Of a stretch of 64,000 nt of DNA, positions 43,400 to 61,794 are shown in pieces. This DNA is from Candidatus Azambacteria bacterium (lineage in GTDB: Bacteria > Patescibacteriota > Minisyncoccia > UBA10092). The stretch's first letter is position 1; each line of letters starts with the position of its first letter. The DNA is taken from positions 14,945 to 78,944 of the forward strand of contig DMPO01000001.1 in NCBI GenBank assembly GCA_003455995.1, read 5' to 3'. The notes beneath the pieces were generated by a model, which saw nothing but the letters and a program-made list of their open reading frames with translations, did not search any database and was not told the origin of the DNA. Position numbers and translations under genes: made by a program.

Positions 43400-44722
43400 T
43401 TATTGCAAAACTCCCCACCTTAATATTCTCCCTATACTCTCTATTTCACCTACCATAGAGGAGGTCGGTATACCAAAATAACAATCGCTTTTTGTAAGTA
43501 TCGCAGCTCCACCAGAATTACCGTGATCGATTTTTGCATCTGTAAGGTAATAATTCCCATCTATGCCCGAAATAATTCCTTTGGTAGCCGTAATGCTTCT
43601 CTGAGAGCCAATAGCGGGGTAACCTAAAACCAAGATATCATCTCCAATACCAACATCACTTAAGTCGCATATTTTAGGATTTTTAGGTGTGAATTTAGAA
43701 AAGAAGGGGTCTTCCGAAAGCAATGTAATCCACCCTATGTCTTGCGAATATTCTTTGGTAGCAAAATGTATATTTTCTCTCTCAACTATAAAGTCTTTTC
43801 CTGCAGAAAGAAACAAGATTCCACAATATGTGGGACGATATTCTTCTTCATCAGCCAAGACATGTTTATTTGTTAAAATGTTAAAACCGATTGTATCGAA
43901 ATTAAACAATGTTCCCGATCCCATGACCGTTCTGTAAAGTTGTCCTGTATCAGCATTTTTCCAAAAACATCTAACAAAAACTACTCTAGGGCTCCATTCT
44001 GCGATTATTTGAGCCGTTGTAGGGTCTTTTTTAATAGGTGGTGGGGTTTCCAAACTTTCTATCTGACTTTTAAAAGCATCTATTTCGTCTTGCTGATTAT
44101 TTTTTGATACTGGTGTTGGCGGAGAATCGCAATAAGCATCACTTTTACCATTTGTGGGGCATATAAGCGACTGCCCTGTTTCACACTTTTTCCAATAGTA
44201 GCCATTACAAAAAATATCGCTTAAATCTAAACCCGTACCTTTTGTTGCGAATTTTTGCGTAGTTGGCGTTGTTGGTGGAATATAATTCGGGACATTTATT
44301 ATAAAAGTGATTATCGAGGCAATTAAAAATGCAATTGCCCAAGTTATTTTTTGTTGTTTTTCACTCTTTTCCTTTCTGATTATTGAAAAGATATATGCGA
44401 CAAGCCTTGATATTGTTAATCCTCCTATTGCCATTCCTAATAAACCAAAAAATGGAATCTTGCTGGAGCCAAAAAACAAAATAATATAGATCAATAATCC
44501 TATGCCCATTAAAAACCAAAAAGTTTTTGAGCCATAACCTTTTTCTTTTTGCGTCTCTACAATTTTTTGCTTTAATGTTTCTAAATCTATGCGATAAAAA
44601 GTTTTCCTTATTATTGGCGGTACTGAAGTAGGCGTTGTCGAAAAAGCCACAATACTATGCCCACAGTTTTGACAAAATCCATCTCCTTCTTCTATTTTAC
44701 TTTCGCAATTTGAGCATTTCAT
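43400..44722 (-). CDS. Zinc-ribbon / TM / trypsin-like serine protease (S1 family) fusion protein
   Basis: N-terminal CxxC...CxxC zinc ribbon (CSNCESKIEEGDGFCQNCGH), two TM helices and a C-terminal trypsin-like domain with His (TNKHVLAD), Asp and Ser (DHGNSGGA). Confidence 0.55.
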   Translation of the reverse strand: MKCSNCESKIEEGDGFCQNCGHSIVAFSTTPTSVPPIIRKTFYRIDLETLKQKIVETQKEKGYGSKTFWFLMGIGLLIYIILFFGSSKIPFFGLLGMAIGGLTISRLVAYIFSIIRKEKSEKQQKITWAIAFLIASIITFIINVPNYIPPTTPTTQKFATKGTGLDLSDIFCNGYYWKKCETGQSLICPTNGKSDAYCDSPPTPVSKNNQQDEIDAFKSQIESLETPPPIKKDPTTAQIIAEWSPRVVFVRCFWKNADTGQLYRTVMGSGTLFNFDTIGFNILTNKHVLADEEEYRPTYCGILFLSAGKDFIVERENIHFATKEYSQDIGWITLLSEDPFFSKFTPKNPKICDLSDVGIGDDILVLGYPAIGSQRSITATKGIISGIDGNYYLTDAKIDHGNSGGAAILTKSDCYFGIPTSSMVGEIESIGRILRWGVLQ

Positions 44723-44734
44723 AGAATCGTATTC

Positions 44735-45250
44735 TTATTCAACTTCACGAAACGGTTTCCCACATGAGGAACAAAATTTTGTATCTTTCGTGTGCCTTAC
44801 CCCACAATGCCCGCAATATTTTATATTGTCATGCTGCATAGCCGTGTTTGTTGTCTTGTCTGGTTTAGCGGTAATTTTGATATTCTGATTATAAACACCC
44901 CCCACTCCCCCAACTTCCCTTGGATCAAGCCCATATTCGTTATTACCCCTAGTTCCGTCAGTGCAAGCCAGTATTAAGTTATAAATAGGGATAAGAAGGT
45001 ACCAACCGCTTTTATTAACATCGTGCATCCGGCGCACACCAACAGCAATAAGCGGAATCACAGTAGCTAACCAGTAGATGCCGTTTAAAAAATTCCAACC
45101 ATCTTCAGAATTGATATCGGCTATCTTTCCGATAATACTTAGCGCAAGAAGAATAAGGAAATTGAAAAGAAAAAACATCCAATATTCTTTTCTTCTCGCA
45201 CGCCCATCAAACACAGCATACTTTTTAAATACTTCAAAATAATAATTCAT
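44735..45250 (-). CDS. DUF805-family membrane protein with C-terminal zinc ribbon
   Basis: DUF805 hallmarks GRARRKEYW ... RRMHDVNKSGW, plus a C-terminal CGHCG...CSSCG. ATG 45248-45250 is preferred; the ORF-track start 45439 is GTG inside the upstream terminator hairpin. Confidence 0.55.
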   Translation of the reverse strand: MNYYFEVFKKYAVFDGRARRKEYWMFFLFNFLILLALSIIGKIADINSEDGWNFLNGIYWLATVIPLIAVGVRRMHDVNKSGWYLLIPIYNLILACTDGTRGNNEYGLDPREVGGVGGVYNQNIKITAKPDKTTNTAMQHDNIKYCGHCGVRHTKDTKFCSSCGKPFREVE

Positions 45251-45419
45251 TTTTTTAATTTGCCGTTCTTTAATTATAATTTTTTCCTCCTTAGTTTTAA
45301 TTTTTGTATCTATCGCATCAAGTAGACTGCCCTTACCAAGTAGTTGGTCACACAGTTTATCAAGCCAATCTTGTTTTTTATTTTCCATACTTTTTATTGA
45401 TAACCCCCCCAAATAAGTA

Positions 45420-45503
45420 AACAAAAAGCCCGTGTCCACTAGGTCTTGCGACCCAATATTTCTTTCGAAATATTGCCCATCGAAGAGTTGTAGAACACGG
45501 GTT
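45420..45503 (-). terminator. Long compound hairpin plus T-tract downstream of the 45672..46391 gene
   Basis: Outer stem ACCCGTGT/ACACGGGC encloses an inner AATATTTC-TTTC-GAAATATT hairpin, followed by TTTTTGTTT on the minus strand. Confidence 0.45.
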
Positions 45504-45671
45504 CTATATCTTCGATGGGTCTTTGTACCATGCCAGTATTGCTACTTGGTTTAGGCCACTTACTTATTAAATTTTATACTTATTACTATATTACAAATTT
45601 TTCTAAAAATCCAATAACAAATAAGCGGAGCTTGCTTCAGTTCTCAGTTAAGGTGTAGTGATTAAAAAAAC

Positions 45672-46391
45672 CTACGAGCCATATTTTTCTTTAATTTTCC
45701 GAATAATTTCTTTTTCATGCTCCTGGAGAGCACTTACCACCTCATCGACTGCCCGTGCCGGCTCCTTGTCGTAATTTGAATAAATAGTTGAAGAAAAATT
45801 AAGTTTTAAATAAAAGAGATCAATCGTACTTTGTATGATTTTAAACAATGTCCTGATTTGTATCCCAGTAATTTTAACATCATCTTTTTTTAAGTCATTG
45901 TGAACTAAATACTGATCTCTATATGTTTTTAAATCACTAATAAGTTCTTTGTTTCTTAGCAGTCGGTTGCGGATTCTTCTTATATCTTGAAGAGTAAATG
46001 GCTTATAACCCTCAAGAAGTGCTGGAATAAAGTTTTTTTCAATATGGTGTGCTAAAAACTCGTTTTTAGAAAATGAAGAAAAATTGTTTTCAACAAAATC
46101 TAACAATAACTCTATGGTTAATGATTGTTTTTTCTTATTTTTATCAAAAAACTTTGCTAACTCAACAAAGAAATAACAACGGGCGGCTTCTTGCAGCGGT
46201 GAAAAGAAATATGGGTACTTGCCGAATATTTTAACATTTGCATCTGCGTTCTTTTTCCCAACTACATTGGGTGCGGTAAGTTTTCTAAATCTCTCGTAAA
46301 TTCTAAGAGCAGCGAGAGTATTTAAGTATTGATCCCTCAAGTCCCCAGTCCATTTAAGCGCTTTTGCAAAGTTATTCTGATGAGAATACAT
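45672..46391 (-). CDS. Hypothetical protein with HEPN-like Rx4-6H motif
   Basis: YRDQYLVHND contains R-x5-H; lies immediately downstream of the DUF262/DUF1524 nuclease gene; 239 aa. Confidence 0.35.
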   Translation of the reverse strand: MYSHQNNFAKALKWTGDLRDQYLNTLAALRIYERFRKLTAPNVVGKKNADANVKIFGKYPYFFSPLQEAARCYFFVELAKFFDKNKKKQSLTIELLLDFVENNFSSFSKNEFLAHHIEKNFIPALLEGYKPFTLQDIRRIRNRLLRNKELISDLKTYRDQYLVHNDLKKDDVKITGIQIRTLFKIIQSTIDLFYLKLNFSSTIYSNYDKEPARAVDEVVSALQEHEKEIIRKIKEKYGS

Positions 46392-46459
46392 AGTTTAAAA
46401 ATTAAAGCTCCTCGAACTTTGATTCTATCTTAACTATATTCGCACCCACTTTAAGCCCG

Positions 46460-48112
46460 CTACTTTCCGGCTTGTAAATCATTGAAAATTTCTTTGAAAA
46501 TCAGGAATCGTTTGTGTAAAAAAGTATTAAATCTACTTCGTATCTTATTTAATTTCTTCTTCTTCTTTTTTCTTATTAGAAACGGACGGTCAAATTGTTC
46601 CAGGTTTTTCAAATCCTTGAAAGGCAGCAGTTCAGATTTTAAATAGTTGTTAATTTTTTCTATACTTATATTTCCATAAAATTCAATTTCAGATTTAAGC
46701 CATTTAGATGGAACTTCCTTACCTTTGCGGATATTTTGGTCCTTGTTAAGATAATGCAGATTTAATATATTATTTACCTCGCTACCAAGCACCCCCTTCT
46801 TATACAAATCAAATGGATAAAAATGGTCATCCTCCGGACTGTGTTGCTTTGTTTCTACATCTATTCGGTTGGTAGGATTGCCATCAATATAGACCGGATG
46901 CTGTTTCCATAAAGCTAATTTGACGATATTCCTTACAGAAGACCTTCCGGCTTTTATATCTGTTGTATCGAAAAATGATTTCACTATGTCAACTTTCTTT
47001 ATAGTAAGATTTGTTTCTTCTATTGCCAGTCGCTTCATTTCTATAGCATCCGGACCAATATTTCTATTATAACCAGAACCAATATATCTATTAGAAAGAG
47101 ATGCTCTCCAAAACCATTTTTTAAGTTCTGTTTGCTGTTTTGAGGTAGGCTTGTTATTAAAATAAAAGAATATACTTAACACAGTTAACAAAGTCTGAGA
47201 CGGTAGTTCACTTACTGAAATAATTCCATATTCTCCTTTTAGATACTGCATTGCATTAGATACGGCTTTGATACCATCATCGAATATCTTATTGTATTTT
47301 TTAGCATCCGCTTCCTCACGAACGGCTTGAGCAATTTTCTTCAGTGCTTTGATATCTATCTCTATAACACCTTTATCCTTTTTATTACCCATCTGCAACT
47401 GGCAAACAAGGGCGAAAACATGAATAAATGTTACCGTATTTATATCCCGAGTCAGGGATTCTCTGTTATGTCTTTTCCAAACTCTAAGCATTCTTTCAAA
47501 ATCAGTATGCTTGGTCCATGTTTCGGACAAGAAAATTGATTCCGTTGCTATCCTTGTCCCTGCTTGATTTATTCTTTCAAAAATCTCAATAGCATTTTTA
47601 TAATTATCTAAAGAAATAATAACCACCGGAAACATATAAGATCTCCCGATTAGATTAAGCAGTTTCTTAAATTTAATATCTCTAAAAACACGTTTATCAT
47701 AATCAAGAAAATATCCCTCCTCATTTTTATTAATGAAAAATTTATCAAAATCTATCAATTGGCTATAGCGAGTATCGCAAATATCATGAAAACTATCCCT
47801 AACTTGATGCTGTGAAAATACCTTTTGCCTTGCCAAATAATAAAGAGATAGAAGCCTTTGCTGACCATCTAATACAAGAAATCTTTTAGCCGGCACGTTA
47901 TCCCCATCAATGGTTCGAGCATCAATTTTTTGACCAGTTTCCCACAATACAAGGCTGCCAATAGGATATTTTTTTCTAAGACTATCGAATAGTTTCTTAA
48001 CTTGGGGAATTTTCCAAACATAACCTCGCTGAAATTCCGGAACGGCTACATGGTTTCTTTCAATAAATGAAATTAGCGTTTTTAGATTAAATTTATATAC
48101 TTTTGTAGACAT
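46460..48112 (-). CDS. DUF262/DUF1524 (GmrSD-like) nuclease
   Basis: N-terminal ParB/DUF262 motifs FQRGYVW and DGQQRL; C-terminal DUF1524/HNH-like region (DDHFYPF ... NILNLHYLNKDQNIRKGKEVPSKW). Confidence 0.65.
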   Translation of the reverse strand: MSTKVYKFNLKTLISFIERNHVAVPEFQRGYVWKIPQVKKLFDSLRKKYPIGSLVLWETGQKIDARTIDGDNVPAKRFLVLDGQQRLLSLYYLARQKVFSQHQVRDSFHDICDTRYSQLIDFDKFFINKNEEGYFLDYDKRVFRDIKFKKLLNLIGRSYMFPVVIISLDNYKNAIEIFERINQAGTRIATESIFLSETWTKHTDFERMLRVWKRHNRESLTRDINTVTFIHVFALVCQLQMGNKKDKGVIEIDIKALKKIAQAVREEADAKKYNKIFDDGIKAVSNAMQYLKGEYGIISVSELPSQTLLTVLSIFFYFNNKPTSKQQTELKKWFWRASLSNRYIGSGYNRNIGPDAIEMKRLAIEETNLTIKKVDIVKSFFDTTDIKAGRSSVRNIVKLALWKQHPVYIDGNPTNRIDVETKQHSPEDDHFYPFDLYKKGVLGSEVNNILNLHYLNKDQNIRKGKEVPSKWLKSEIEFYGNISIEKINNYLKSELLPFKDLKNLEQFDRPFLIRKKKKKKLNKIRSRFNTFLHKRFLIFKEIFNDLQAGK

Positions 48113-48131: not shown

Positions 48132-50930
48132 TTACCATTCAAACATCTCAACTATGTTTTCAATGGCGTTTTTAATGCGATCAATGATTCCCTGTCGTTC
48201 TTTGATTCGAGGCGCCTCCGGTAATAAATCGACAATATCTTGTCCGTTAGGCGGTTTTTGCGCGTACAGGTATTCACCGATCAGATGTTCAAACTTTTCA
48301 ATCGGGATATTTTCAGTTTGAGCGATAATCTTCAAACTCTCGGAACGTTCACTTGCCCAAAATTCACTAAACGCTTTTTCAACATCGTCTGACCTGCCAA
48401 TTTTGGGCAAATTTTCTTCAATGAATTTCTTGATTAAATCTTTCTTCTTACGAAGTTTGACATCCCTATCAAATAGACGCAAAATTTCTTCCGTTTTCTT
48501 TTTACGGACCACATCGGAGCTAATATTTTTAAGACCGGCAATGAGTTGGATAATATAGTCAAAGTTAATAATATCCCGAACGGTCAGTTCAATTTCAAAG
48601 TCAATTTGGTCCAAAATAGATTCAATTTCGCTATTATTATTTTTACGATCCTCATAAACATCCAAGTATTTGCTTTGATAATCATAAAATTCCTGCTCCG
48701 TTATTCCAATGTCATTAAAAGAAAATTCTGCGAATGTCTCGAGCGACGATTTGATACGAAGTAAATCACGAAATATCTTTACAAATTCCGCTTTTTCTTC
48801 TTCTCCTTGCAACCCATCGACACTAGAAACAGTCGGCACCTTTTCTCGTAATTCCGCCAGTTTATCTTCAAATTCTTTTTTCTGGACTTCATACGGTTTT
48901 TTAAACACAACATCTTTGGCGTTTTCATCACCAAAAAGCGCCAATGCTTTATCGGTTGCTTCTTTTAAGTTTCTAAATGAAACAATATTGCCGTGAGGTT
49001 TGTCAGAATTTAAAAGCCGATTTGTTCGTGAATATGCTTGAATCAATCCGTGATATCGCAAATTTTTATCCACATACAGCGTATTGAGCCGTGGACTATC
49101 AAACCCCGTCAAAAACATATTAACCACCAAAACGAGATCGACTTCCTTATTCTTTATTCTCTTCTGCAAATCCCGGTAATAATCATAGAAACGATCAGTT
49201 GAAAAGTTTGTTGAATATCGTTTGTTGTAATCCTTTATACAGTCCTCTAAGTAATCTCTTGAATGTTGATTGACAACTGCCCCCTCGTCGTCAAAGACAT
49301 CAACATCAAGTATGTCGGAGCTCTCGTCTTCGTTCGCTTTATAGGTAAAAATTGTCGCAATAGAAAAATCTTCCGCTTTCTTATCCTTGAGTAATTTATA
49401 ATACTTTTTTAATACCTCAATAGATGAAACGGCAAATAATGCATTAAACTTTCCCTGTTTTGTTTTTCGTTTCCAGTCCGCCAGTATATAATCCGTAATT
49501 TTATTCAACCGGTCGGCGCTTTCAAGCACTTCTTGGGTATTAATGCCTTCAATCATAACATCGGCAAAAATATCTGCGTCTAATGTATCCGGATCTTTTT
49601 GCGTGTATTTCCCAACATATTCAACAGCAAAACCAAGCACATTATTATCTGAAATCGCATCGGTAATAATATACTTATGCAAACATTCGCCAAAGACATC
49701 AACGGTCGTTACTCCTCCCACATTATTATCAGCAAAGATTGGCGTTCCGGTGAAGCCAAACAATTGAGCTTTTTTAAAGAATCCTTTTATCCGAGCATGT
49801 GTCTGCCCAAATTGACTTCTGTGACATTCATCAAAAATCACAACCACTTTTTCATTGGCTAAATATTCAAAATGCTTGAGATGAGATTCTCTCCCGATAG
49901 CGATATCAAGCTTTTGAATTGTAGTAACGATAAGTTTTCTATTTTTATCTTCAAGTTGCTTCACAAGACTATGCGTGTTATCAGTGCCATCCACCGCCCC
50001 TTCGGAAAAGGAGTTGAACTCTTTTGTTGTTTGAATATCCAAGTCCTTTCTATCCACCACAAAAAGCACCTTTTTAACTTCAGGCATTCGTGAAAGTACT
50101 TGACTTGTTTTGTATGAAGTTAATGTTTTGCCTGATCCTGTGGTGTGCCAAATATAGCCATTTTTATCAGATTCACGCACTCGGTCCTCAATCGCTCTTA
50201 CTGCATAATATTGATATGGGCGAAGGGTCATCGGGATTTGCGTTGCTTCAGCCAATACAATATATTCAGCAATCATTTCTGATAGAGCGCATTTTTCCAG
50301 AAATGCATCGGCAAACTCATCTATCTTGGTAATTTTTCTATTCTTCACATCCGTCCAGTAGAAAGTTTGTTCAAATGATTGTTTTGGATTATTTGAAAAA
50401 TATTTTGTATTTACTCCGTTTGAAATCACAAATATTTGGATATATTCAAACAGTGTTCCCGTAAATGAGTGTTTGTGATAGCGCTGGATTTGGTTAAAGG
50501 CCTCTTTGAGTTCCATACCTCGGCGCTTAAGTTCAATTTGCACCAATGGCAAGCCATTCACCAACAAAGTCACGTCATAGCGATTTTCATAGCGTCCGGC
50601 TTGAGTAATTTGCTGCGCAACTTGATATTCATTTTTGCACCACTGATCCATATTGAAAAACCGCACATAGAAAATGCTCTCATCATCACGAGTCAGGACA
50701 AGGCGATCACGCAAGGTCTTGGCTTTTTGAAAACGGTCGCTTTTGTTTATGTGATTCAATATGCGAATAAACTCATCATCAGAAAAAGTTGTTTGATTGA
50801 ATTTTTCAAGCTGTCCTCGCAGGTTCGCAACCATCGCAGCGGCGTCTTCCAAGACAACCGAAGAAAAACCCAACCGCCCAAGCTGTTCAATCAAGGTCTT
50901 TTCAAGTTGTTGCTCACTTTGGTGGGTCAT
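48132..50930 (-). CDS. hsdR: Type I restriction enzyme R subunit (HsdR)
   Basis: SF2 helicase motifs TGSGKT and DECHRS, an N-terminal PD-(D/E)xK nuclease region and the HsdR C-terminal domain; 932 aa. Confidence 0.9.
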
Positions 50931-50931
50931 A

Positions 50932-52800
50932 TTATTTTTTTATAAACGGTTGAATCGATCCATTAATAAAACTTTTCAACATAAGAGACCTTGGTGTTTT
51001 TTTGTTTTCAAACTTTTTTTCTATTTCTTTAATCCCACTTTTTAACCTTTTCTTTAATTTTTTGAGAAATGGGATTTCCTGCTCAATGCCATTTATTTGA
51101 GTCCTTAAATTTTCATACCTATCTTTAAAAGTTTTCTGTAATATATGTAACATAATTGGCCTACCTTTGATTAATATTTTTGCTATTTCTTCTACATCAA
51201 AATATTGAAAATAAGCATCTCCATTTCCTGTATTATGCAAAAAATTATAATTTATTAATAAATCTAAGCTCTGTTCAGTGTTTTTTTCTCCCTTTAAGAT
51301 AGGCATCAATTCGTTTTTAATCTTTTCTTTGATGAATATTTCTTTATGGCTCTTTATCTTTTCATTAATTAATTCAATCAATTTTCCCCACTCTTCATTT
51401 TCCATTCCAAAATATTCAAGCCCATAAGTACTTTTTCTCCAACTAAAACCCCACTCCTGTTCGCATAACTTTAAAGGAAATTTCTTTTCTTTAATTAATA
51501 ACTCGATGTATTCTTTGCCCTCTTTAAAAATATCTTTTTTGTCTTTCTTCAATAAACCTTCTTTAGAAAAATTCAAAAAAATTCCAAAAACATGTAACAC
51601 CACATAAAAATCATCATAGTCTCTATTTTCCCACTTTTTTTGTACATCTTTTAAGTTACTAAAAAAATCCTCATCGCTGTGATCATAGCGATGCCAAAGT
51701 TTTTGCCATGATTCTTTGTTTACACCAATAAGATTTTCAAAATTACCAACTAATTCTCCATTTTCTTTTTCTGATAAATTAATTCCTTGTAAAATTTTTC
51801 CTAATATATTCACATCAAAACAAGTGACCCAATGAGACAGTCCTTCGTCATATTTATCTAAAAAGTGGTCCTTATTTTTGTCATCTAATCCTTTAAAAAA
51901 TTGGGGATACTTTTTAAAAAAATCTTCACTTTTTATATTACCTCTCTTGTATTCAATAAAAATGACAACAAATTCATAGAACATTTTTTCAAACAATTCA
52001 ACATTTTCTTTTACCTTGCTTGAAAAACTTTTAAAGAAATACTCAAAGCTAGATAACGCTTGCTGTATTAATCTTAAATTATCATATTTAGACTGGGTAA
52101 AGATTTTTGAAAGTAATTTTTTTATATTTTCAGAATAATTTATTAAATCATCGCCCATCACCCCCTCGGTAAACAAAGTTATTGCCTCCTCCTGTGAAGG
52201 ATTAATGCAAAATTCTTTCCCAATCAATTTTTCTTTAATTTTTCTATATTTATCACCACTCTTAGACTCTAGAAGATCTTCTTCATTCGCAACTAAAATA
52301 ACCTTTTGATTTTTAAATTCAACGAAATTATTTATATACCCGAGTAATTTATCAATTTCAATATTACATCTTTCAAGATCATCAAAAACAAAAACACAGC
52401 CCTTACTTTTCTTTAAGAAAATATCCACCAACAACTCATCAGCGTCAGAAGGAACCCAGTCTCTAATTTTTGGTATTTTTTTAATGTTTCTGAGTATGCT
52501 ACTTGCAAAAATATTATATTTTTCTGGGACAAAAGGAATCAGTTCAATGATTATTTTTTCTTTTATCCCGTTAAAACTATCAACACCATACAAGCTAATA
52601 TGTAAAATCTTTTTTTCTTTTTTTATATCAATGTAGTTCTTAATAAAATAAGTTTTCCCGCAACCCCACTTTCCTTTTAATAAGACAGCAAATGGAAGAT
52701 TATTTTCGAAATCACAATAATAATCCAAATATTCTTCTATATGTTTGTTTATTATCATTGTATTTATACAAACAACCCCTGCATCAAGCCCCTTTTCCAT
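50932..52800 (-). CDS. KAP-family P-loop NTPase embedded in the hsd operon
   Basis: Walker [14 protein letters not shown] and Walker [11 protein letters not shown] fit the KAP pattern. Overlaps the hsdS 3' end by 37 nt (or starts at the alternative M15, 52758) and ends 2 nt before hsdR. Confidence 0.65.
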
Positions 52801-53984
52801 TGCTCGGCTTGGACGATTTGTTGTTGTTTTGATTCTATTATTTTATCTATTGAAGTTAAAAATCCCGCAATTTTTTGCTGTTCTAAGAATAAGGGGACCG
52901 GCACAAAAAAATTCTTTACAATTTTAGCATTCAAGTTTCCTTGCGTGCCGGTTTCAATGAAGCTATGCACTAACTTTTTATAAAAAAATAAATAATAATA
53001 TAAATATTCTAAATTAATAATTTTACTATTTGGTATTAAATTGATCATTGCCTGAGATGTTGCAAGAGGTATTTGGTTTATAGCAACAAACCCGACGCTT
53101 GCATACATTGAATATATGAGTGAACCCTTTGGCACAATCCATGCTGATGAATTTTTTAGACCCTCTTCACTTATACTTTTCTCAGTTTGCAATATATATT
53201 TTCCACTCTTTGTCATGTCGGCAATCGAAAGAAATGGGATACTGCCATCATAGTATTCTTTCTTTGTTGAGGTTGGCGTTCCTCCACTCTTTGCCTTATC
53301 ACAAATTTCCCCCAGTTTCTTCTCCTCCCACTTCGGGAACTCCTTTCCATCCTCATCCTTGAAACGGATTTCTTGTGCAAAGATTTTTTGCATCATTCCT
53401 TTTTTGTAAGATTCAAAAGATTCTTTTTGCGCCTGCAGATTTTCAATCCACGCATCCGTTGATCTTAAAAAATCAGAAATTTTTTGTTGCTCTGGAATGG
53501 ATGGAAAAATAACCGGGCATCTTAAAACTTCATCTTTTCTTAAGTTTGTTTGACTTACGCCATTATCAAATTTTAAAAAATATTTATTTCGATTTAATAT
53601 TCTAATCAAAAAGGGACTTACAATTTCTTTTGATTTAATTCCACCAATTCTTTGATTGAGTGTATAAGTATTATCCTCATTAACTAAAAAGCACTTACTT
53701 ATTGCCTTACCATTCGGAATATCACTCATAACAATAGCAATGTCGTCTTTTTTAAGTGAGGATATCTGTTTATCTGAATATTTTTTAACCTCGCCATTTT
53801 GTGAAATAAATTTTGAATTTACAACAATATATTTTCCATATTCTGAAATATCTTGCTCGTGAGCTTTTCCATTCCAAAATTTAGAAACCTCCCCCAACTT
53901 ATTCTCCTCCCACACACCAGAAAAACCTGGAAAGCGAAGTTTCGGTATTTTTTTAGTTTCTAATTGTACAGCTTTACTTGGCAT
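52764..53984 (-). CDS. hsdS: Type I restriction-modification specificity subunit (HsdS)
   Basis: Two target-recognition domains separated and followed by conserved coiled-coil repeats (...LPVPLFLEQQKIA ... IPEQQKISDFL...). Confidence 0.85.
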   Translation of the reverse strand: MPSKAVQLETKKIPKLRFPGFSGVWEENKLGEVSKFWNGKAHEQDISEYGKYIVVNSKFISQNGEVKKYSDKQISSLKKDDIAIVMSDIPNGKAISKCFLVNEDNTYTLNQRIGGIKSKEIVSPFLIRILNRNKYFLKFDNGVSQTNLRKDEVLRCPVIFPSIPEQQKISDFLRSTDAWIENLQAQKESFESYKKGMMQKIFAQEIRFKDEDGKEFPKWEEKKLGEICDKAKSGGTPTSTKKEYYDGSIPFLSIADMTKSGKYILQTEKSISEEGLKNSSAWIVPKGSLIYSMYASVGFVAINQIPLATSQAMINLIPNSKIINLEYLYYYLFFYKKLVHSFIETGTQGNLNAKIVKNFFVPVPLFLEQQKIAGFLTSIDKIIESKQQQIVQAEQWKRGLMQGLFV

Positions 53985-53986
53985 AA

Positions 53987-55564
53987 CTAAAATGGTTTAT
54001 TGATTTTCAATTCATTGCAAAATTTTTCAATCTTGTTTTTCAGACCGAGCTCGTTTGCGTGCAATTCTTTCAACCTCTTTGAAACCTCTTTAATATCCAC
54101 TGCTACTTCTTCCTCAACTGTGTCCACATAGCGTGGGATATTTAGATTGTATTCATTTTCTTTGATTTCTTTTATGCTTGCTCTGTGTGAATATTTTTCT
54201 ATTTCTTTGCGACTTTTATAGGTATTAAAAATCTTCTCAATATTTTCATTGGTGAGTTTGTTTTTATTACCAATCTTTTCAAAGCCTTTGGAGGCATCTA
54301 TAAACAGAATGTCTTCATCATCTTTGCGACATTTTTTAAAAATAAGAACTGTTGCTGGAATAGCTGCCCCATAAAAAAGATTCGAAGGAAGTCCAATGAC
54401 TGCATCAAGATAATTTTGCTTTTCTATGATGTATTTTCTAATATGGCCTTCGGCGCCGGACCGGAAAAGCGCCCCATGAGGCAATACAATAGCCATAGTG
54501 CCATTATCGCCGAGGTGATAGAGCATATGAGTTACAAAGGCATAATCAGCTTTATTTTTTGGAGCTAATCGCCCATATTGAGAAAATCGATCATCATGCG
54601 CTAGTTGTGGGTCGCTATTGCCTTTCCACTTTGAGGAAAAAGGTGGATTGGCGACGATTGCCTCCGCCTTAAGGTCTGCGTGCATATCCTCTCTAAGGGT
54701 ATCGCCTTGGCGTATTGAAAAACGATCAAAGCGCACTCCGTGCAAAATCATATTCATTCGGGCAAGGTTGTAGGTCGTCGGGTTGAGCTCTTGTCCATAA
54801 TATTTTACAACTTCGGTAAATTCGCCAAGACGAAGTAAAAGCGAACCAGAACCACAAGTTGCGTCATATGCTGATTTGATGCGTTTTTTATCTACAGAAA
54901 CAATTTGAGCAAGCAAGCGTGATACTTGAGCAGGAGTATAGAACTCACCACCTTTTTTACCAGCGCCGGCAGCAAATTCTCCAATCAAATATTCATAAGC
55001 ATCGCCAAGAAGATCGCTTTTGGCGTCTTCAAGCTTAAAATCAATACCATTAAGCAATGTGAGCACTTCAACAACAACTTCATTCTTTTCACTCTCACGA
55101 GAACCAAGTTTCGTGGAAGTCAGGTCCACATCATCAAACAGTCCTTTGAAGTCATCCTCACTTGCGGTTCCTGCCGAGGTTTTTTCAATAGCATTAAGAA
55201 TATTTTTAAGATCCTCCAGAATAAAAGTTTTTTGATCTTTTATTTCACCTTTTCCCTTTTTGACTAAATATGAAAAAAGCTGTGACGGTCTTAAGAAAAA
55301 ACCAAGTTCATCAATGCAAGCCTTTTCTATATGCTTCAAATAGTCCTTCCCCTCCTTTGTGTTTTCTTTTATTTCAGCAAAAGTGATTTTTTCACGAGCA
55401 AGAAGTTTTTCATTTACATATCGCTCAAGTTTTTCAGAAAGATATTTATAAAAAATAAAGCCAAGAATATAGTTTTTATATTCATCGGCATTCATTTTGC
55501 CTCGCAGCACATTAGCCACGCCCCATAACTGTCTCTCTAATATCCTTTTTTGTTCTTCTGACAT
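53987..55564 (-). CDS. hsdM: Type I restriction-modification DNA methyltransferase (HsdM, N6-adenine)
   Basis: HsdM N-terminal domain, an FxGxG-like SAM motif (DATCGSGSLL) and catalytic NPPF (VANPPFSSKW). Confidence 0.92.
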   Translation of the reverse strand: MSEEQKRILERQLWGVANVLRGKMNADEYKNYILGFIFYKYLSEKLERYVNEKLLAREKITFAEIKENTKEGKDYLKHIEKACIDELGFFLRPSQLFSYLVKKGKGEIKDQKTFILEDLKNILNAIEKTSAGTASEDDFKGLFDDVDLTSTKLGSRESEKNEVVVEVLTLLNGIDFKLEDAKSDLLGDAYEYLIGEFAAGAGKKGGEFYTPAQVSRLLAQIVSVDKKRIKSAYDATCGSGSLLLRLGEFTEVVKYYGQELNPTTYNLARMNMILHGVRFDRFSIRQGDTLREDMHADLKAEAIVANPPFSSKWKGNSDPQLAHDDRFSQYGRLAPKNKADYAFVTHMLYHLGDNGTMAIVLPHGALFRSGAEGHIRKYIIEKQNYLDAVIGLPSNLFYGAAIPATVLIFKKCRKDDEDILFIDASKGFEKIGNKNKLTNENIEKIFNTYKSRKEIEKYSHRASIKEIKENEYNLNIPRYVDTVEEEVAVDIKEVSKRLKELHANELGLKNKIEKFCNELKINKPF

Positions 55565-55568
55565 AAAA

Positions 55569-55751
55569 TTATTTTTGTTTGAGTAATTTTAATATATCAC
55601 CTCTTCTATACCGCCTGTCTTTCCTTGTACCATAGCGGATTGCCTTTAAAAACCCCGAATTATCCCATTTTCGCAGGGTATTTGGATGAAGAGCTAGAAT
55701 TGAGCAAGCTTCAGCCAGAGTTATAATTTGATCTTTTTTTGTGTCGGTCAT
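55569..55751 (-). CDS. Excisionase/MerR-type HTH (HTH_17-like) small DNA-binding protein
   Basis: LTLAEACSILALHPNTLRKWDNSGFLKAIRYG resembles the excisionase-family HTH; 60 aa. A paralogous gene lies at 58979-59155. Confidence 0.55.
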   Translation of the reverse strand: MTDTKKDQIITLAEACSILALHPNTLRKWDNSGFLKAIRYGTRKDRRYRRGDILKLLKQK

Positions 55752-55805
55752 ATATAAATCGCTTACTTACCATCACTTTACACCATCCAATAATTGAAAT
55801 CAATA

Positions 55806-55846
55806 AAAAACGGCGATCCCGTCTGTAGGACCGCCGTTTTTGTGCG
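55806..55846. terminator. Bidirectional terminator AAAAAACGGCG-N16-CGCCGTTTTT
   Basis: A perfect 7-bp GC stem flanked by A6 and T5. Confidence 0.5.
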
Positions 55847-56412: not shown

Positions 56413-56610
56413 TTAGATTTTGTTAATTGTGATGAAATTGTCCGAATATTCGACCTCAACTTTACTGCCGACGGTAAACCCGGATTCGAGAAGGAACCTA
56501 TTAGCAATTCTAAGCATCGGCTTTTGCTTATCATCGCCGGGAGCCTCTAATATGGTCATTTCTCTTTTCGGACCATAACTTAATCTCATGATTAATTTAG
56601 CTTCGTTCAT
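56413..56610 (-). CDS. SymE/AbrB-fold (SpoVT-AbrB swapped-hairpin) small protein, toxin- or DNA-binding-like
   Basis: PMLRIANRFLLESGFTVGSKVEVEYSDNFITI matches the SymE pattern (l-lkG-WLeeaGF--G--v-V-v--g-ivI); 65 aa. Confidence 0.4.
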   Translation of the reverse strand: MNEAKLIMRLSYGPKREMTILEAPGDDKQKPMLRIANRFLLESGFTVGSKVEVEYSDNFITINKI

Positions 56611-56951
56611 AATTTTCGTTTTTCTACTTGTTTACAATAGAAAAGGCAAACACCTCTTTTGATTTTCTTAATAATGTTTCCTACTGGGTCTTTTACCTCG
56701 ACGAAAGTAATTGACCGAATGGCTTTTTCTCCCTTTTTTACTCGATACCCAAGCTTCCACCATTGGGCGAAAGTAAGGGCATTATTATACGGGTCATACT
56801 TCTTCACTTCTTCATGACCCCAGCGCTTTTCTATCTGTTTGGCTACCAGGTCATAGGTAACCGAAGACCCTGTATAGGGAGATATACGGGGAGGAACACT
56901 CATAATTTCATTTACACTTTGCATATACGGCTTGATTATCACTAACGCCAA
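56607..56951 (-). CDS. Hypothetical protein
   Basis: A 114-aa ORF whose stop overlaps the SymE-like gene start (4-nt overlap). Confidence 0.4.
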   Translation of the reverse strand: MALVIIKPYMQSVNEIMSVPPRISPYTGSSVTYDLVAKQIEKRWGHEEVKKYDPYNNALTFAQWWKLGYRVKKGEKAIRSITFVEVKDPVGNIIKKIKRGVCLFYCKQVEKRKL

Positions 56952-59159: not shown

Positions 59160-60806
59160 ATGGCCGATATCAACAACACTGAAAAACATTGGCTAATCGC
59201 CTTTTATGGTAGGGTCTCAACATCGCTGCAGGAGGAACAAAAAACAATTGAGACTCAACTCATGGCAATGAATGATTTCGCCGATAAGAAATTCGGTAAA
59301 GGTAACTATACTGTAGTCAAAGAATATCTCGATGAAGGTTGGAGCGGAGACAATATTGTAAGACCTAGTCTTGACCAGCTTCGGGTTGATGCAAAGAAAA
59401 AGATTTGGGACGCAGTAATAATTTATGACCCGGACCGATTGGCTCGCAGATATTCATTGCAAGAGTTGGTAATGGACGAAATAAAAGATGTCGGGATTGA
59501 AGTTATTTTTGTTACCGTATCTACTCCCAAAAACATAGAGGATAAGATCCTTTATGGGGTACGGGGACTGTTCGCTGAATATGAGCGAGCAAAAATATCG
59601 GAACGTTTCCGCCTTGGGAAACTTCTTAAGGTTAGAAATGGCAATATTCTTACAACAGAGGCTCTTTATGGATATGATTACATTCGCAATGACAAGATAA
59701 ATAAAAAGCCCGGCTACTATGTGATAAATGAAGAAGAAGCAAGGGTTGTAAGAATGATATTTGCTTGGGTTGGCGAAGAAGGATTAACGCTCCGGCAAGT
59801 AGTGAGACGATTGCAAGAAATGGAGATAAAACCAAGAAAAAGTAAAAGGGGGGTTTGGAATACAAGCACTTTATCTACTCTACTAAGACACAAAGCGTAT
59901 ATAGGAATGGCTCATTGGGGTAGTTCCTATGCGGTAGTTCCAAAGAATCCTACAAATAAGGAAAAATATCGGCAAGTAAAAAAGAGTAGTCGAAAAATCA
60001 AACCGGAAACAGAATGGATTGCGTCGAACATCCCAGTGCCACCTATCATTGGGGAAGAACTATTTATGAAAGTGCGAGAACAATTAAAAACCAATTTTGC
60101 GCTGTGCCAACGGAATACCAAAAATGAATATCTACTTGGCGGTAAAATATTTTGTTCTTGCGGCACAAAGAGATGTGGCGAAGGTCCTCAACATGGCAAA
60201 CATCTTTACTATCGTTGCAGTAATAGAATCTATAACTTCCCTCTGTCCCCTACATGCAATGAGAAAGGAATTAATGCGAGAATCGCTGATAAATTAGTAT
60301 GGCAAAAAATCAAAGAGTTTATGACTTCTCCGAAATTATTATCACGACAAATCAATCGACGGAAAGATATCCGGAAAAATAAAACTCTACCATTAATTGA
60401 AAATATAGGAATAGCGGAAAAAGAACTTGCGAAACTGAAAGCGCAGGAAGACCGCTACATCAAGGCATATGGAAACGGCGCATTAACTATTGAACAATTA
60501 AAAGAGCAAGTAACATCAATAAAAAGTCATATGGCAACATTTGAATCGCAAATAAGAAAGGTCAATCAAGAAAAAAGCCGGATTGATACTGCTCCAACAC
60601 CAACTGAAAAAGAAATAAAAATATTTACAGATGAGGCAGCCAAAACTATTAATGACTTGAATTTTGAGACAAAACGGACAATCATTAGAAATACTGTAGG
60701 AAGAATTATTGGCACACAGCGACAGCTACAGGTGTCTGGCGAAATACCATTAACACTAAATTATGTCACATACAAAACTAACTATCGGTATAGTTGGCCT
60801 GCCTAA
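59160..60806 (+). CDS. Large serine recombinase (resolvase/invertase N-terminal domain + recombinase domain + zinc ribbon)
   Basis: Catalytic Ser context FYGRVSTSLQEEQ, resolvase-like N-terminus, recombinase domain, Cys cluster (CSCGTKRCGEG...YYRCSNR) and a coiled-coil C-terminus; 548 aa. Confidence 0.88.
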   Translation: MADINNTEKHWLIAFYGRVSTSLQEEQKTIETQLMAMNDFADKKFGKGNYTVVKEYLDEGWSGDNIVRPSLDQLRVDAKKKIWDAVIIYDPDRLARRYSLQELVMDEIKDVGIEVIFVTVSTPKNIEDKILYGVRGLFAEYERAKISERFRLGKLLKVRNGNILTTEALYGYDYIRNDKINKKPGYYVINEEEARVVRMIFAWVGEEGLTLRQVVRRLQEMEIKPRKSKRGVWNTSTLSTLLRHKAYIGMAHWGSSYAVVPKNPTNKEKYRQVKKSSRKIKPETEWIASNIPVPPIIGEELFMKVREQLKTNFALCQRNTKNEYLLGGKIFCSCGTKRCGEGPQHGKHLYYRCSNRIYNFPLSPTCNEKGINARIADKLVWQKIKEFMTSPKLLSRQINRRKDIRKNKTLPLIENIGIAEKELAKLKAQEDRYIKAYGNGALTIEQLKEQVTSIKSHMATFESQIRKVNQEKSRIDTAPTPTEKEIKIFTDEAAKTINDLNFETKRTIIRNTVGRIIGTQRQLQVSGEIPLTLNYVTYKTNYRYSWPA

Positions 60807-61794
60807 TGTGGGTAAATCCACTTTATTTAAAGCGCTGACCAGAGAAAAAGTTAATATCGCCAATTTTCCCTTCGCCACCATCGATCCCAATGTTGGGATT
60901 GTTAAAGTTCCCGATCAACGGCTTATCCGACTTGCTGAAATGTCGAAGTCAAAAAAAATCGTTCCGGCGGCAATAGAATTTGTCGATATTGCCGGCTTGG
61001 TCAAAGGCGCCCATGAAGGCGCGGGGCTTGGCAATCAATTTTTGGCGCGCATCAGAGAAGTGGATGTTATTGTTGAAGTGGTGAGGGATTTTGAAAACCC
61101 GGACATTATTCATGTTGAAGAAACCGTTAATCCGTCGCGGGATATTGAAACAATCCAACTGGAACTGGTCATGGCCGATCTGCAAACGCTGAATAAGCAT
61201 CTGGCCACGATTGAAAAAGATGTCAGAGCGGGCAAAAAATACGCCCAAGAAGAAAAGATAGTTTTGGAAAAAATAAAAACGGTTTTAGAGGCCGGAGAAG
61301 GAGCCACAAAAGCAAAACTTTCCGAATCAGAATTATTGTTGATAAAAAATTTACATTTTATGACTCTAAAGCCGTTTTTATTTGTTTATAATATTTCAAA
61401 AAATATCGATAATGGAAATCGACTGGCAATTAATTTGCGATTGGAGGCGGAAATAGCGGAAATGAGCGAAGAGGAAGCCAAAGAATTTGAAAATGAATCG
61501 CGTTTGCCGGAATTGATAAAAAAGGCCTATGATTTATTGGATTTAATTACCTATTTCACCACCGGAGAAGATGAGACCCGCGGCTGGACTATTAGAGCCG
61601 GATGGACGGCGCCGCAGGCCGGTTCGGCAATCCATAACGATTTTGAACAAAAATTTATCAAGGCCGAAGTTATAAATTGGCAAAAATTGCTGGAGTGCGG
61701 TTCTTGGGCCAATGCCCGTCAAAAGGGATTCTTACGAACGGAAGGAAAGGACTATGTGGTCGAAGACGGCGATGTCATAGAATTCAAAATTTAA
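60763..61794 (+). CDS. ychF: Ribosome-binding ATPase YchF (Obg-family GTPase)
   Basis: G1 GIVGLPNVGKSTLF, the TGS-like C-terminal domain, and ...GEDETRGWTIRAGWTAPQAAG.IH.DFE...; 343 aa. Confidence 0.92.
   Translation: MSHTKLTIGIVGLPNVGKSTLFKALTREKVNIANFPFATIDPNVGIVKVPDQRLIRLAEMSKSKKIVPAAIEFVDIAGLVKGAHEGAGLGNQFLARIREVDVIVEVVRDFENPDIIHVEETVNPSRDIETIQLELVMADLQTLNKHLATIEKDVRAGKKYAQEEKIVLEKIKTVLEAGEGATKAKLSESELLLIKNLHFMTLKPFLFVYNISKNIDNGNRLAINLRLEAEIAEMSEEEAKEFENESRLPELIKKAYDLLDLITYFTTGEDETRGWTIRAGWTAPQAGSAIHNDFEQKFIKAEVINWQKLLECGSWANARQKGFLRTEGKDYVVEDGDVIEFKI

What the first reader, a model, noticed from the sequence alone, without database searches (positions are those of the whole stretch)
48132..55564. 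Type I RM operon with a KAP-family P-loop NTPase inserted between hsdS and hsdR (the PrrC-like slot)
The gene order is hsdM-hsdS-[KAP NTPase]-hsdR, with the KAP gene overlapping the hsdS end and stopping 2 nt before hsdR, which is a translationally coupled arrangement. In classical type Ic loci the anticodon nuclease PrrC occupies exactly this position and is kept latent by the RM complex. A KAP NTPase here (Walker A GKWGCGKT, Walker [10 protein letters not shown], 622 aa with a long C-terminal region of unknown function) suggests an analogous RM-guarded abortive-infection effector. It belongs to a different NTPase family and to my knowledge has not been characterised as such.
Basis: partly seen in the sequence, partly recalled or inferred. 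Interest (0 to 1): 0.75.

Follow-up and report, generated by a model that had tools for sequence, protein, structure and literature searches.

The report
Candidate defence NTPase inside restriction operon
A tightly packed type I restriction-modification operon in a Patescibacteria genome carries an extra P-loop NTPase gene that belongs to an already catalogued but untested family of candidate anti-phage genes, so it is a real example of a known pattern, not a new kind of system.

Summary
On the minus strand the order is hsdM, hsdS, KAP-type NTPase, hsdR, with gaps of 2, 5 and 1 nt. Two corrections: the NTPase most likely starts at Met15 (608 aa, no overlap with hsdS), and 1 nt, not 2, separates it from hsdR.

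The NTPase matches PADLOC candidate family PDC-S49 over its full length (E 1e-126). That family was defined by "guilt-by-embedding" in RM/BREX systems (Payne et al. 2024). KAP NTPase fusion proteins were shown to be anti-phage in 2025-26. The claim that nothing of this kind has been characterised is therefore out of date.

The protein has an ORC/Cdc6/TnsC-like AAA+ core, no membrane segment, and a family-specific 366-residue all-helical C-terminal region (residues 257-622). That domain has no nuclease or other effector fold.

The link to RM systems is real and involves several RM types (type IC, an EcoEI-like type I, type II, type IIG/PglX). It is facultative: 8 of 16 close relatives and 19 of 80 species-level relatives lie next to RM genes. 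Stand-alone and embedded copies interleave on the tree.

My best reading is an autonomous, AT-rich defence cassette that hitch-hikes in RM operons. A PrrC-like guarded effector is not excluded, but nothing here supports it.

The parts
53987..55564 (-). hsdM, type I RM methyltransferase subunit (525 aa), first gene of the operon
   Evidence: Pfam N6_Mtase 1.9e-108 and HsdM_N. NCBIfam TIGR00497 hsdM 1.1e-140, above its cut-off.
52764..53984 (-). hsdS, specificity subunit (406 aa, two target-recognition domains)
   Evidence: Pfam Methylase_S 4.1e-46 in 2 stretches. It starts 2 nt after the hsdM stop. A near-identical strain variant (L089) loses DNA similarity upstream of window position 52857, which is consistent with a different hsdS segment there.
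50932..52758 (-). Embedded KAP-type P-loop NTPase, PADLOC family PDC-S49. Probable product is 608 aa starting at Met15; the longest ORF extends to 52800 (622 aa).
   Evidence: PADLOC PDC-S49 1.2e-126 over residues 17-602 of the protein and 5-601 of the 624-position profile. Pfam KAP_NTPase 6.2e-18. PHROG phrog_4740 2e-63. GC 0.27 against 0.378 for hsdM and hsdR. AlphaFold2 model pLDDT 85.4. No transmembrane segment: the highest 19-residue Kyte-Doolittle mean is 1.25.
52033..52758 (-). N-terminal NTPase module (residues 15 to about 256): AAA+-like alpha/beta core plus helical lid. Walker A GKWGCGKT (residues 42-50), Walker [10 protein letters not shown] (residues 136-144).
50935..52032 (-). C-terminal family-specific all-alpha domain (residues 257-622), a putative sensor or interaction module
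48132..50930 (-). hsdR, restriction/translocase subunit (932 aa), type IC-like
   Evidence: Pfam HSDR_N, SWI2_SNF2, ResIII, T1R_D3-like and EcoR124_C 1.7e-57. TIGR00348 4.1e-149. Its ATG lies 1 nt after the KAP stop.
55806..55841 (-). Terminator-like hairpin (15-bp stem plus T run) of the upstream gene. It marks the 5' boundary of the hsd transcription unit.
   Evidence: The hsd promoter would then lie in 55565-55805; this is inferred and was not identified.
46460..48112 (-). GmrSD_N (DUF262)-containing protein of 550 aa, starting 19 nt downstream of hsdR. Probably part of the same defence cluster or transcript.
   Evidence: Pfam GmrSD_N 3.3e-30. PADLOC PDC-M55C 1.6e-38 and HEC-05 2.4e-22.
45672..46391 (-). 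HEPN AbiU2-like protein (239 aa), a further defence-island gene
   Evidence: Pfam HEPN_AbiU2 6.7e-11.
59160..60806 (+). Large serine recombinase at the edge of the island. Housekeeping genes PGM (40761-42011) and YchF (60763-61794) flank the island.
   Evidence: Pfam Resolvase, Recombinase and Zn_ribbon_recom. A similar recombinase lies at the end of homologous locus L092 and in L099.

Best explanation
The gene at 50932-52758 (minus strand) encodes a soluble KAP-type P-loop NTPase of PADLOC candidate family PDC-S49. It has an AAA+/ORC-Cdc6/TnsC-like ATPase core and lid, followed by a family-specific alpha-helical solenoid domain (residues 257-622, 366 aa). It is an AT-rich accessory cassette lodged in the hsdS-hsdR junction of an intact type IC-like hsdMSR operon. 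That operon is part of a defence island of about 17 kb (GmrSD-like, AbiU2 and protease genes) beside a large serine recombinase in a Patescibacteria genome.

Shown:
- family membership;
- intact motifs;
- operon-like packing;
- recurrent but facultative linkage to methylation-based defence systems of several types;
- absence of a transmembrane segment and of any recognisable effector fold.

Inferred: it is an autonomous second-layer anti-phage NTPase switch. The C-terminal solenoid would bind a phage-derived protein or other infection cue. NTP binding and hydrolysis at the Walker site would then drive a conformational or oligomeric change that blocks phage replication, as reported for other KAP-NTPase fusion proteins whose Walker B motif and C-terminal region are both required. 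Embedding would give co-expression and co-transfer with the RM system, and possibly back-up when restriction fails. It would not be needed to keep the protein latent.
For: - Identity: PDC-S49 1.2e-126 over the full length. Pfam KAP_NTPase is above its cut-off. 1125 homologues were found; the listed ones are mostly about 600-650 aa.
- Fixed two-module architecture in the listed best hits among about 2000 50%-identity clusters.
- Cassette behaviour: KAP GC is 0.24-0.32, always 3-16 points below each neighbouring gene in 8 independent loci and in the window.
- Autonomy:
  - Close relatives at 45-65% identity stand alone among apparently unrelated genes (P0015, P0024, P0044).
  - Other close relatives sit in non-RM defence islands (P0017 with Schlafen-type helicases; P0040 with SIR2).
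  - The stand-alone P0015 is sister to the embedded P0003 on an NJ tree.
  - 61 of 80 species-level loci have no RM gene within 8 kb.
- Defence context: the S-R slot of related type I operons carries other cargo, namely Abi_C, Uma2, an AAA_21/AAA_15 ATPase with DUF4276, Fic and KilA-N.
- Literature: the PDC families were defined by embedding in RM/BREX/DISARM. KAP NTPase fusions protect E. faecalis from phage, need Walker B and the C-terminal region, and EF_KAP is not abortive.
Against: - No experiment exists for PDC-S49 itself; the name was found in none of the searched full texts.
- The validated KAP proteins (EF_KAP, PifA) are only distantly related. Profile comparison with PifA aligns only 41 columns around Walker A. 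EF_KAP has transmembrane helices, which this protein lacks.
- With no effector domain, it is unclear how a stand-alone copy would stop a phage.
- The enrichment next to RM genes is high: 8 of 16 close relatives, and 19 of 80 distant ones have an RM gene within 1.5 kb. The gene is often translationally coupled directly after hsdS or a methyltransferase gene, or directly before the nuclease gene. This leaves room for a real functional dependence on RM components.
- One near-identical strain variant carries a disrupted copy (L089).
Confidence: 0.55

Rival explanations
1. PrrC-like guard. The NTPase is held inactive by binding HsdM/S(/R). It is released as an abortive-infection effector, or becomes an activating sensor, when a phage anti-restriction protein disables the RM complex.
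For: - It occupies the same slot as prrC in a type IC-like operon, with 5-nt and 1-nt junctions.
- The slot is used repeatedly by this family in type IC operons (window, L001, L081, L083, L092).
- It follows hsdS directly in an EcoEI-like type I system with a different gene order (L094).
- It lies between M and R of a type II system (L098).
- It lies directly after type IIG/PglX-like genes (L003, L041, L080).
- Precedents for RM-guarded effectors exist: PrrC and Ronin.
Against: - Many close and most distant relatives lack any RM neighbour, and embedded and stand-alone copies interleave on the tree.
- The RM partners belong to unrelated enzyme families, which fits poorly with one conserved protein-protein interface.
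- There is no nuclease, HEPN, membrane or other toxic-effector fold.
- The ATPase is AAA+-like, not ABC, and no PrrC profile hit was found.
- In many cyanobacterial loci the gene is convergent with or divergent from the hsd operon, not inside it.
Confidence: 0.2
2. Accessory or regulatory factor of methylation-based restriction. An ATP-dependent, DNA-binding AAA+ protein (like TnsC, MuB or ORC) modulates loading, target choice or self-restraint of the neighbouring nuclease. It has no independent anti-phage activity.
For: - The best structural matches of the ATPase core are DNA-bound initiator-clade AAA+ proteins: TnsC, MuB, and Orc1/Cdc6.
- The gene often lies immediately upstream of the restriction gene (window, L081, L083, L092, L098).
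- BrxC, an ORC-like ATPase integral to BREX, is also among the matches.
Against: - Classical type I, II and IIG enzymes work without such a factor (established knowledge).
- Closely related hsd operons carry different cargo, or none of this family, in the same slot.
- Stand-alone copies have no nuclease partner.
Confidence: 0.1
3. Passenger with no current defence role: a mobile, AT-rich gene of other or lost function that merely tolerates insertion in RM operons, and may be decaying.
For: - The low GC is consistent with foreign origin.
- A 99.8% identical variant (L089) carries an 83-nt replacement that truncates the protein at 277 aa.
- Homologues also lie beside TniQ in Tn7-like contexts.
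Against: - The reading frame is intact and all catalytic motifs are invariant across 27-77% identical homologues.
- The architecture is fixed in the listed hits among about 2000 clusters.
- No transposase or recombinase domain was found in the protein.
- RM and defence genes are strongly enriched among nearest neighbours.
Confidence: 0.1

Closest known systems
PADLOC PDC-S49 (single-gene 'phage defence candidate' from guilt-by-embedding; Payne et al. 2024, bioRxiv 10.1101/2024.01.29.577857)
   Same: The profile matches over the full length (E 1.2e-126). The family was defined from genes embedded in type I RM, BREX or DISARM systems, which is the situation here.
   Different: Nothing structural differs. 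The family is a prediction only: no phenotype or mechanism is published, and the name was absent from the searched full texts. The window adds a Patescibacteria example, and the relatives fetched here add a type II RM context for the family.
PrrC anticodon nuclease in the EcoprrI (type IC) hsd locus
   Same: Same position between hsdS and hsdR of a type IC-like operon. It is also a P-loop NTPase N-terminal module plus a C-terminal module, co-expressed with the RM genes.
   Different: PrrC has an ABC-type ATPase and an anticodon-nuclease domain, and is described as almost exclusively RM-embedded. This protein has an AAA+/ORC-like core and a helical solenoid with no nuclease fold. It is frequently not RM-linked.
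Experimentally validated KAP P-loop NTPase defence proteins (EF_KAP and three metagenomic KAP fusions, PMC13552941; PifA of plasmid F)
   Same: Shares the KAP Walker A (GxWGxGKT) and Walker B (DDLxR) signatures, followed by a long C-terminal region with no known fold. In EF_KAP both modules are needed for defence.
   Different: EF_KAP is modelled with transmembrane helices. This protein has none. Similarity to PifA is limited to about 41 columns around Walker A.
STAND/Avs-type and ORC-like defence ATPases (Avs3, RdrA of RADAR, BrxC of BREX)
   Different: There is no fused effector domain, except a C-terminal serine-hydrolase domain in two relatives, P0014 and P0022. There is no dedicated partner gene such as RdrB or the other BREX genes. 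No TPR or other known repeat family was detected by Pfam.
Ronin (RonA with HsdMS decoy; bioRxiv 10.1101/2023.04.06.535777)
   Same: It is a precedent for an effector genetically tied to type I HsdM/S that fires when anti-restriction proteins appear.
   Different: RonA is a 61-aa membrane toxin that is always linked to hsdS/hsdM and usually lacks hsdR. Here the RM system is complete, and the embedded gene encodes a large soluble NTPase that is often found without RM genes.

Membership tests
Pfam KAP_NTPase (PF07693) | Profile score above the curated gathering threshold | tested here: met
   65.5 bits against a cut-off of 20, E 6.2e-18, in two stretches. The match covers the profile only partly: the best stretch is residues 131-254 against profile positions 149-288 of 293.
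Pfam KAP_NTPase (PF07693) | Walker A of the GxWGxGK[ST] type and Walker B hhhhDDL[DE]R | tested here: met
   GKWGCGKT and VFVFDDLER are present and invariant in 33 homologues. The motif definitions come from my knowledge of the 2004 description of the family.
Pfam KAP_NTPase (PF07693) | Transmembrane helices inserted in or next to the P-loop domain (typical of many KAP proteins, not universal) | tested here: not met
   The highest 19-residue Kyte-Doolittle mean is 1.25, so no segment qualifies as a membrane helix. The Walker A to Walker B spacer is about 90 residues of amphipathic helices.
PADLOC PDC-S49 | Full-length match to the family HMMs | tested here: met
   PDLC05031 1.2e-126 (residues 17-602 against profile positions 5-601 of 624), PDLC05029 4.6e-104, PDLC05030 2.6e-77.
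PADLOC PDC-S49 | Occurs embedded in type I RM, BREX or DISARM systems | tested here: met
   Found embedded in the window and in L001, L081, L083, L092, L094, L023 and L043 (type I). Also found in L098 (type II) and in L003, L041 and L080 (type IIG/PglX-like).
PADLOC PDC-S49 | Anti-phage activity | not testable with these tools
   No experimental report was found.
PrrC anticodon nuclease family | N-terminal ABC-type ATPase | tested here: not met
PrrC anticodon nuclease family | C-terminal anticodon-nuclease domain | tested here: not met
PrrC anticodon nuclease family | Located between hsdS and hsdR of a type IC locus | tested here: met
   The EcoR124_C domain in HsdR marks the type IC-like family.
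PrrC anticodon nuclease family | Near-exclusive embedding in type I RM, and latency imposed by the RM complex | tested here: not met
   Embedding: only 3 of 80 species-level loci are embedded in a type I operon on the same strand, and 61 of 80 have no RM gene nearby. About half of the close relatives are not RM-linked. Latency itself cannot be tested with these tools.
Type I RM system, type IC-like (EcoR124I/EcoprrI group) | Complete hsdM, hsdS and hsdR, with the EcoR124-type C-terminal domain in HsdR | tested here: met
   All three are full-length matches above the curated cut-offs.
PifA (F plasmid phage-exclusion protein) | Full-length homology to PifA | tested here: not met
   hhalign of the family alignment against PifA aligns 41 columns around Walker A only, probability 74%.
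STAND/Avs-type defence NTPases | NTPase plus repeat sensor plus fused effector domain | tested here: inconclusive

The most novel reading that the evidence does not exclude
PDC-S49 proteins could be general guards of methylation-based immunity. An ORC/TnsC-like ATPase with a new alpha-solenoid sensor would detect phage anti-restriction factors such as DNA mimics, or detect failure of the neighbouring enzyme. It would do so alongside unrelated RM types (type I of two families, type II, type IIG/PglX) and act without any canonical effector domain. That would make it a PrrC/PARIS/Ronin-like back-up layer built on a different NTPase class, here in a reduced Patescibacteria genome.
Probability: 0.15. 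Interest if true: 0.7.

Novelty: new member of a known kind. Interest (0 to 1): 0.35.

Why it matters
The locus is a clean, intact example of defence-gene embedding in the S-R slot of a type IC operon, in a candidate-phyla-radiation bacterium whose immune repertoire is little studied.

The comparative data gathered here sharpen what is known about PDC-S49:
- It is a fixed two-module, soluble NTPase.
- It is consistently AT-rich relative to its surroundings.
- It is linked to at least four kinds of methylation-based systems, yet is often autonomous.

This turns a vague idea of a PrrC analogue into two testable alternatives: an autonomous switch, or a guard of RM function. It also nominates residues for mutagenesis: K49, D140/D141, and the conserved C-terminal residues E283, K316/Y317, W365, H403, R561 and E575.

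It does not reveal a new category of system.

Tried and rejected
- Literature search for 'PDC-S49': 0 papers. The supplements of the Payne preprint held no PDC-S49 entry in the stored text.
- Metagenome scan with the single protein returned only 3 short loci. Context was obtained from encoding-contig look-ups and the genome scan instead.
- The sequence profile against PDB found nothing meaningful (E about 1).
- tblastn against phage and plasmid collections matched mainly the N-terminal NTPase part, never more than 65% of the protein, so no annotated full-length relative was found there.
- The promoter scan was uninformative: 45 sites against 51 expected. The weak 7-bp hairpin inside the KAP gene (51693-51672) is treated as chance.
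- A membrane-associated KAP was considered and rejected, because no hydrophobic segment was found.
- Orthology to PifA was considered and rejected.
- Pseudogene status was considered and rejected for the window copy.
- I considered whether the TnsC-like fold plus TniQ neighbours in Nostoc means the protein is a transposition ATPase. I did not adopt this. In the Nostoc loci the only flanking genes characterised are tniQ upstream and a convergent hsd operon downstream, which suggests the gene is transposon cargo. Other Tn7 genes were not looked for. The window has no Tn7 genes near the operon.
- The 83-nt insert of L089 is not a repeat found elsewhere in the window.

Full report
**Observation**

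Four intact ORFs lie head to tail on the minus strand:
- hsdM, 53987-55564;
- hsdS, 52764-53984;
- a P-loop NTPase, 50932-52800 as the longest ORF;
- hsdR, 48132-50930.

Pfam and NCBIfam confirm the three Hsd subunits at full length. HsdR carries SWI2_SNF2/ResIII, T1R_D3-like and EcoR124_C domains, which is the type IC-like architecture of EcoR124I/EcoprrI. The inserted gene passes the Pfam KAP_NTPase threshold (65.5 bits against 20).

Two details need correction.
- Homologue alignments, the PADLOC and PHROG profiles and the family consensus all start at residue 15-18, and AlphaFold confidence is below 50 for residues 1-14. The real start is therefore probably Met15 (ATG 52758; 608 aa), 5 nt after the hsdS stop, not overlapping it.
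- One nucleotide, not two, separates the KAP stop from the hsdR ATG.

The hsdM-hsdS gap is 2 nt. A strong terminator-like hairpin (55841-55806) lies upstream of hsdM and none of similar strength lies inside the cluster. The four genes are therefore very likely one transcription unit with translational coupling. This last point is inference from spacing.

**What the protein is**

PADLOC profiles for PDC-S49 match it from end to end (E 1.2e-126). The PDC ('phage defence candidate') families were produced by Payne et al. They collected genes embedded in type I RM, BREX and DISARM systems, removed known defence, mobility and housekeeping families, and built HMMs from the rest (bioRxiv 10.1101/2024.01.29.577857). 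No paper in the searchable library mentions PDC-S49 by name, so it remains untested.

[quoted passage not shown] In that study both the Walker B motif and the C-terminal region are required, and the lead example does not behave as an abortive-infection system (PMC13552941).

**Structure**

A 33-sequence alignment gave an AlphaFold2 model with mean pLDDT 85.4.
- There is no hydrophobic segment that could span a membrane. This differs from EF_KAP, which is modelled with transmembrane helices, and from many KAP proteins as I recall the family description.
- Profile comparison with PifA aligns only the Walker A region.
- A profile of this domain finds 1971 clusters at 50% identity. In the 150 best listed it sits at about 250-620 of proteins of about 600-650 aa, so the two modules form a fixed architecture.
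- The only extra domain seen is a C-terminal serine hydrolase in two close relatives.

**Genomic context of relatives**

The host of the window is a Patescibacteria (CPR) bacterium. Its RNase J is 84-85% identical to proteins named from that group, and the closest KAP homologues come from Moraniibacteriota and Parcubacteria.

Among 16 relatives at 40% identity or more whose surroundings I could read, 8 are RM-linked.

| Context | Members |
|---|---|
| S-R slot of type IC-like operons, sometimes with further cargo such as Fic, Abi_C or KilA-N | window, P0003, P0007, P0016, P0028 |
| Directly after hsdS in an EcoEI-like type I system ordered R-M-S | P0029 |
| Between the methyltransferase and the PF09520 endonuclease of a type II system, with 2-nt gaps | P0030 |
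| 151 nt after a type IIG Eco57I/MmeI-like gene | P0023 (L003) |
| Other defence neighbourhoods (Schlafen-type helicases with DpnI; SIR2; UvrD-PLD) | P0017, P0040, P0014 |
| No obvious defence neighbour | P0015, P0024, P0044 |
| No RM gene detected | P0043 (L004; RNase H-domain gene upstream), P0045 (L006) |

On a neighbour-joining tree the embedded and stand-alone copies interleave. For example, the stand-alone P0015 is sister to the embedded P0003.

Among 80 species-representative genomes holding more distant relatives (26-71% identity), 19 have an RM component within 1.5 kb.
- Three are embedded on the same strand in type I operons: L001, L023 and L043. In L043 the order is M-S-KAP-GmrSD-R.
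- Three lie directly after type IIG/PglX-like genes: L003, L041 and L080.
- Five Calothrix-type loci are convergent with hsdS at 17 nt.
- Seven Nostoc loci have the order TniQ, KAP, then a convergent hsd operon.
- One (L079) is divergent from hsdM.
- The remaining 61 show none of these RM families within 8 kb.

My rough estimate, not computed here, is that a random gene would lie this close to a type I system in well under 1% of cases. On that basis the enrichment is large, though the Nostoc and Calothrix groups are each probably one ancestral event.

The S-R slot of related hsd operons carries quite different cargo, namely Abi_C, Uma2, and an AAA_21/AAA_15 ATPase with DUF4276. This fits the published picture of that junction as a general docking site.

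In every locus examined the KAP gene is markedly more AT-rich than its neighbours (0.24-0.32 against about 0.31-0.45). The window shows the same pattern (0.27 against 0.378 for hsdM and hsdR). This is consistent with a cassette that moves between contexts.

**Interpretation**

The evidence supports a real, recurrent affinity of this NTPase family for methylation-based defence systems. It also shows that the affinity is facultative and spans enzymatically unrelated partners. That pattern fits an autonomous defence cassette that gains co-expression and co-transfer by lodging in RM operons. It fits less well a protein that must bind one particular RM complex to stay latent.

The fold suggests a nucleotide-driven switch plus a protein-binding module, not an enzyme-type toxin. 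I therefore favour, at about 0.55, an autonomous sensor-switch. Its helical domain would recognise an infection cue, and its ATPase cycle would execute or license the block. The executing step is unknown.

The alternatives are these.
- The PrrC-like guard model keeps about 0.2. The gene is so often placed, with tight coupling, right after the specificity or methylase gene or right before the nuclease gene, and guards of RM function are an established concept (PrrC, Ronin, PARIS).
- A role as an RM accessory factor gets about 0.1.
- A functionless passenger gets about 0.1.

**Novelty and verdict**

The locus is a new member of a known kind. It is a type IC operon with an embedded gene from a catalogued candidate family, in a class of proteins (KAP NTPase fusions) recently shown to include anti-phage factors. 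The claim of novelty is out of date, and the specific PrrC-like mechanism is not supported by fold or distribution, although it is not excluded.

Interest is moderate-low (0.35). Its value lies mainly in providing a clean test case and in the multi-type RM linkage documented here.

Noticed in passing
L089 1285-1367, corresponding to window positions about 52105-52108; also window 52857: A metagenome contig 99.8% identical to the window across the end of hsdS and the first two-thirds of the KAP gene has an 83-nt stretch replacing 4 nt at about KAP codon 231. This shifts the frame and truncates the protein at 277 aa. Upstream of window position 52857 the two sequences stop matching, which is consistent with a different hsdS segment in that variant. 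The insert is not found elsewhere in the window. It could be a real disrupted allele or an assembly artefact.
   Followed up: partly
window 43400-48112 (minus strand): Four more probable defence or accessory genes lie directly downstream of hsdR. They are a 550-aa GmrSD_N-only protein (PADLOC PDC-M55C and HEC-05-like), an AbiU2-type HEPN protein, a DUF805 plus zinc-ribbon protein, and a zinc-ribbon, membrane and trypsin-like protease protein with weak similarity to the protease part of RT-Protease_XI. With the hsd operon they form an island of about 17 kb between phosphoglucomutase and YchF.
   Followed up: partly
window 59160-60806 (+) and 56607-56951 (-): A large serine recombinase (Resolvase, Recombinase and Zn_ribbon_recom) borders the island, and a short ORF has a weak ArdC-N-like match (E 2e-4). 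This suggests the island is or was an integrative mobile element. Similar recombinases occur in homologous loci L092 and L099. Attachment sites were not searched for.
   Followed up: no
L098 2202-6477: A 55%-identical homologue is embedded between the methyltransferase (N6_N4_Mtase) and the endonuclease (PF09520) of a type II RM system, with 2-nt gaps on both sides. The family's embedding is therefore not restricted to type I systems.
   Followed up: yes
L039, L046, L047, L049, L051, L053, L059 (Nostoc): In seven Nostoc genomes the homologue lies about 200 nt downstream of a TniQ gene (PADLOC TniQ_IB type) and is convergent with a type IC-like hsd operon. The S-R slot of that operon carries Abi_C plus Uma2, and in L046 also an AAA_21/AAA_15 ATPase plus DUF4276. 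This looks like defence cargo of a Tn7-like element.
   Followed up: partly
L014, L029, L034, L050, L052: In this cyanobacterial group (Calothrix, Rivularia and an unclassified cyanobacterium) the homologue is divergently paired with a protein of about 333 aa related to HSDR_N (probably the PADLOC PDC-S11 hits seen among these neighbours). In the four loci other than L052 it ends 17 nt from a convergent hsdS; in L052 the two reading frames overlap by 33 nt. This is a conserved three-gene arrangement of unknown meaning.
   Followed up: no
L043 5052-15193: In a Paraglaciecola genome the order is hsdM, hsdS, KAP homologue, GmrSD (N and C domains plus DUF5655), hsdR. A KAP homologue and a GmrSD-type protein thus co-occur next to a type I system in two very distant loci: here, and in the window, where the GmrSD_N protein follows hsdR.
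   Followed up: partly
P0014 and P0022 (L096 7001-9403): Two close homologues (59-64% identity) carry a C-terminal serine hydrolase domain (PF06821) fused after the helical domain. This is the only added domain found in the family and a possible hint at an effector. A separate PF06821 gene lies 4.5 kb from the stand-alone homologue in L097.
   Followed up: partly
window 37975-39705 and the whole window: Housekeeping genes place the window in Patescibacteria (CPR). RNase J is 84-85% identical to proteins from that group. A multi-system defence island in such a reduced genome is worth noting.
   Followed up: partly
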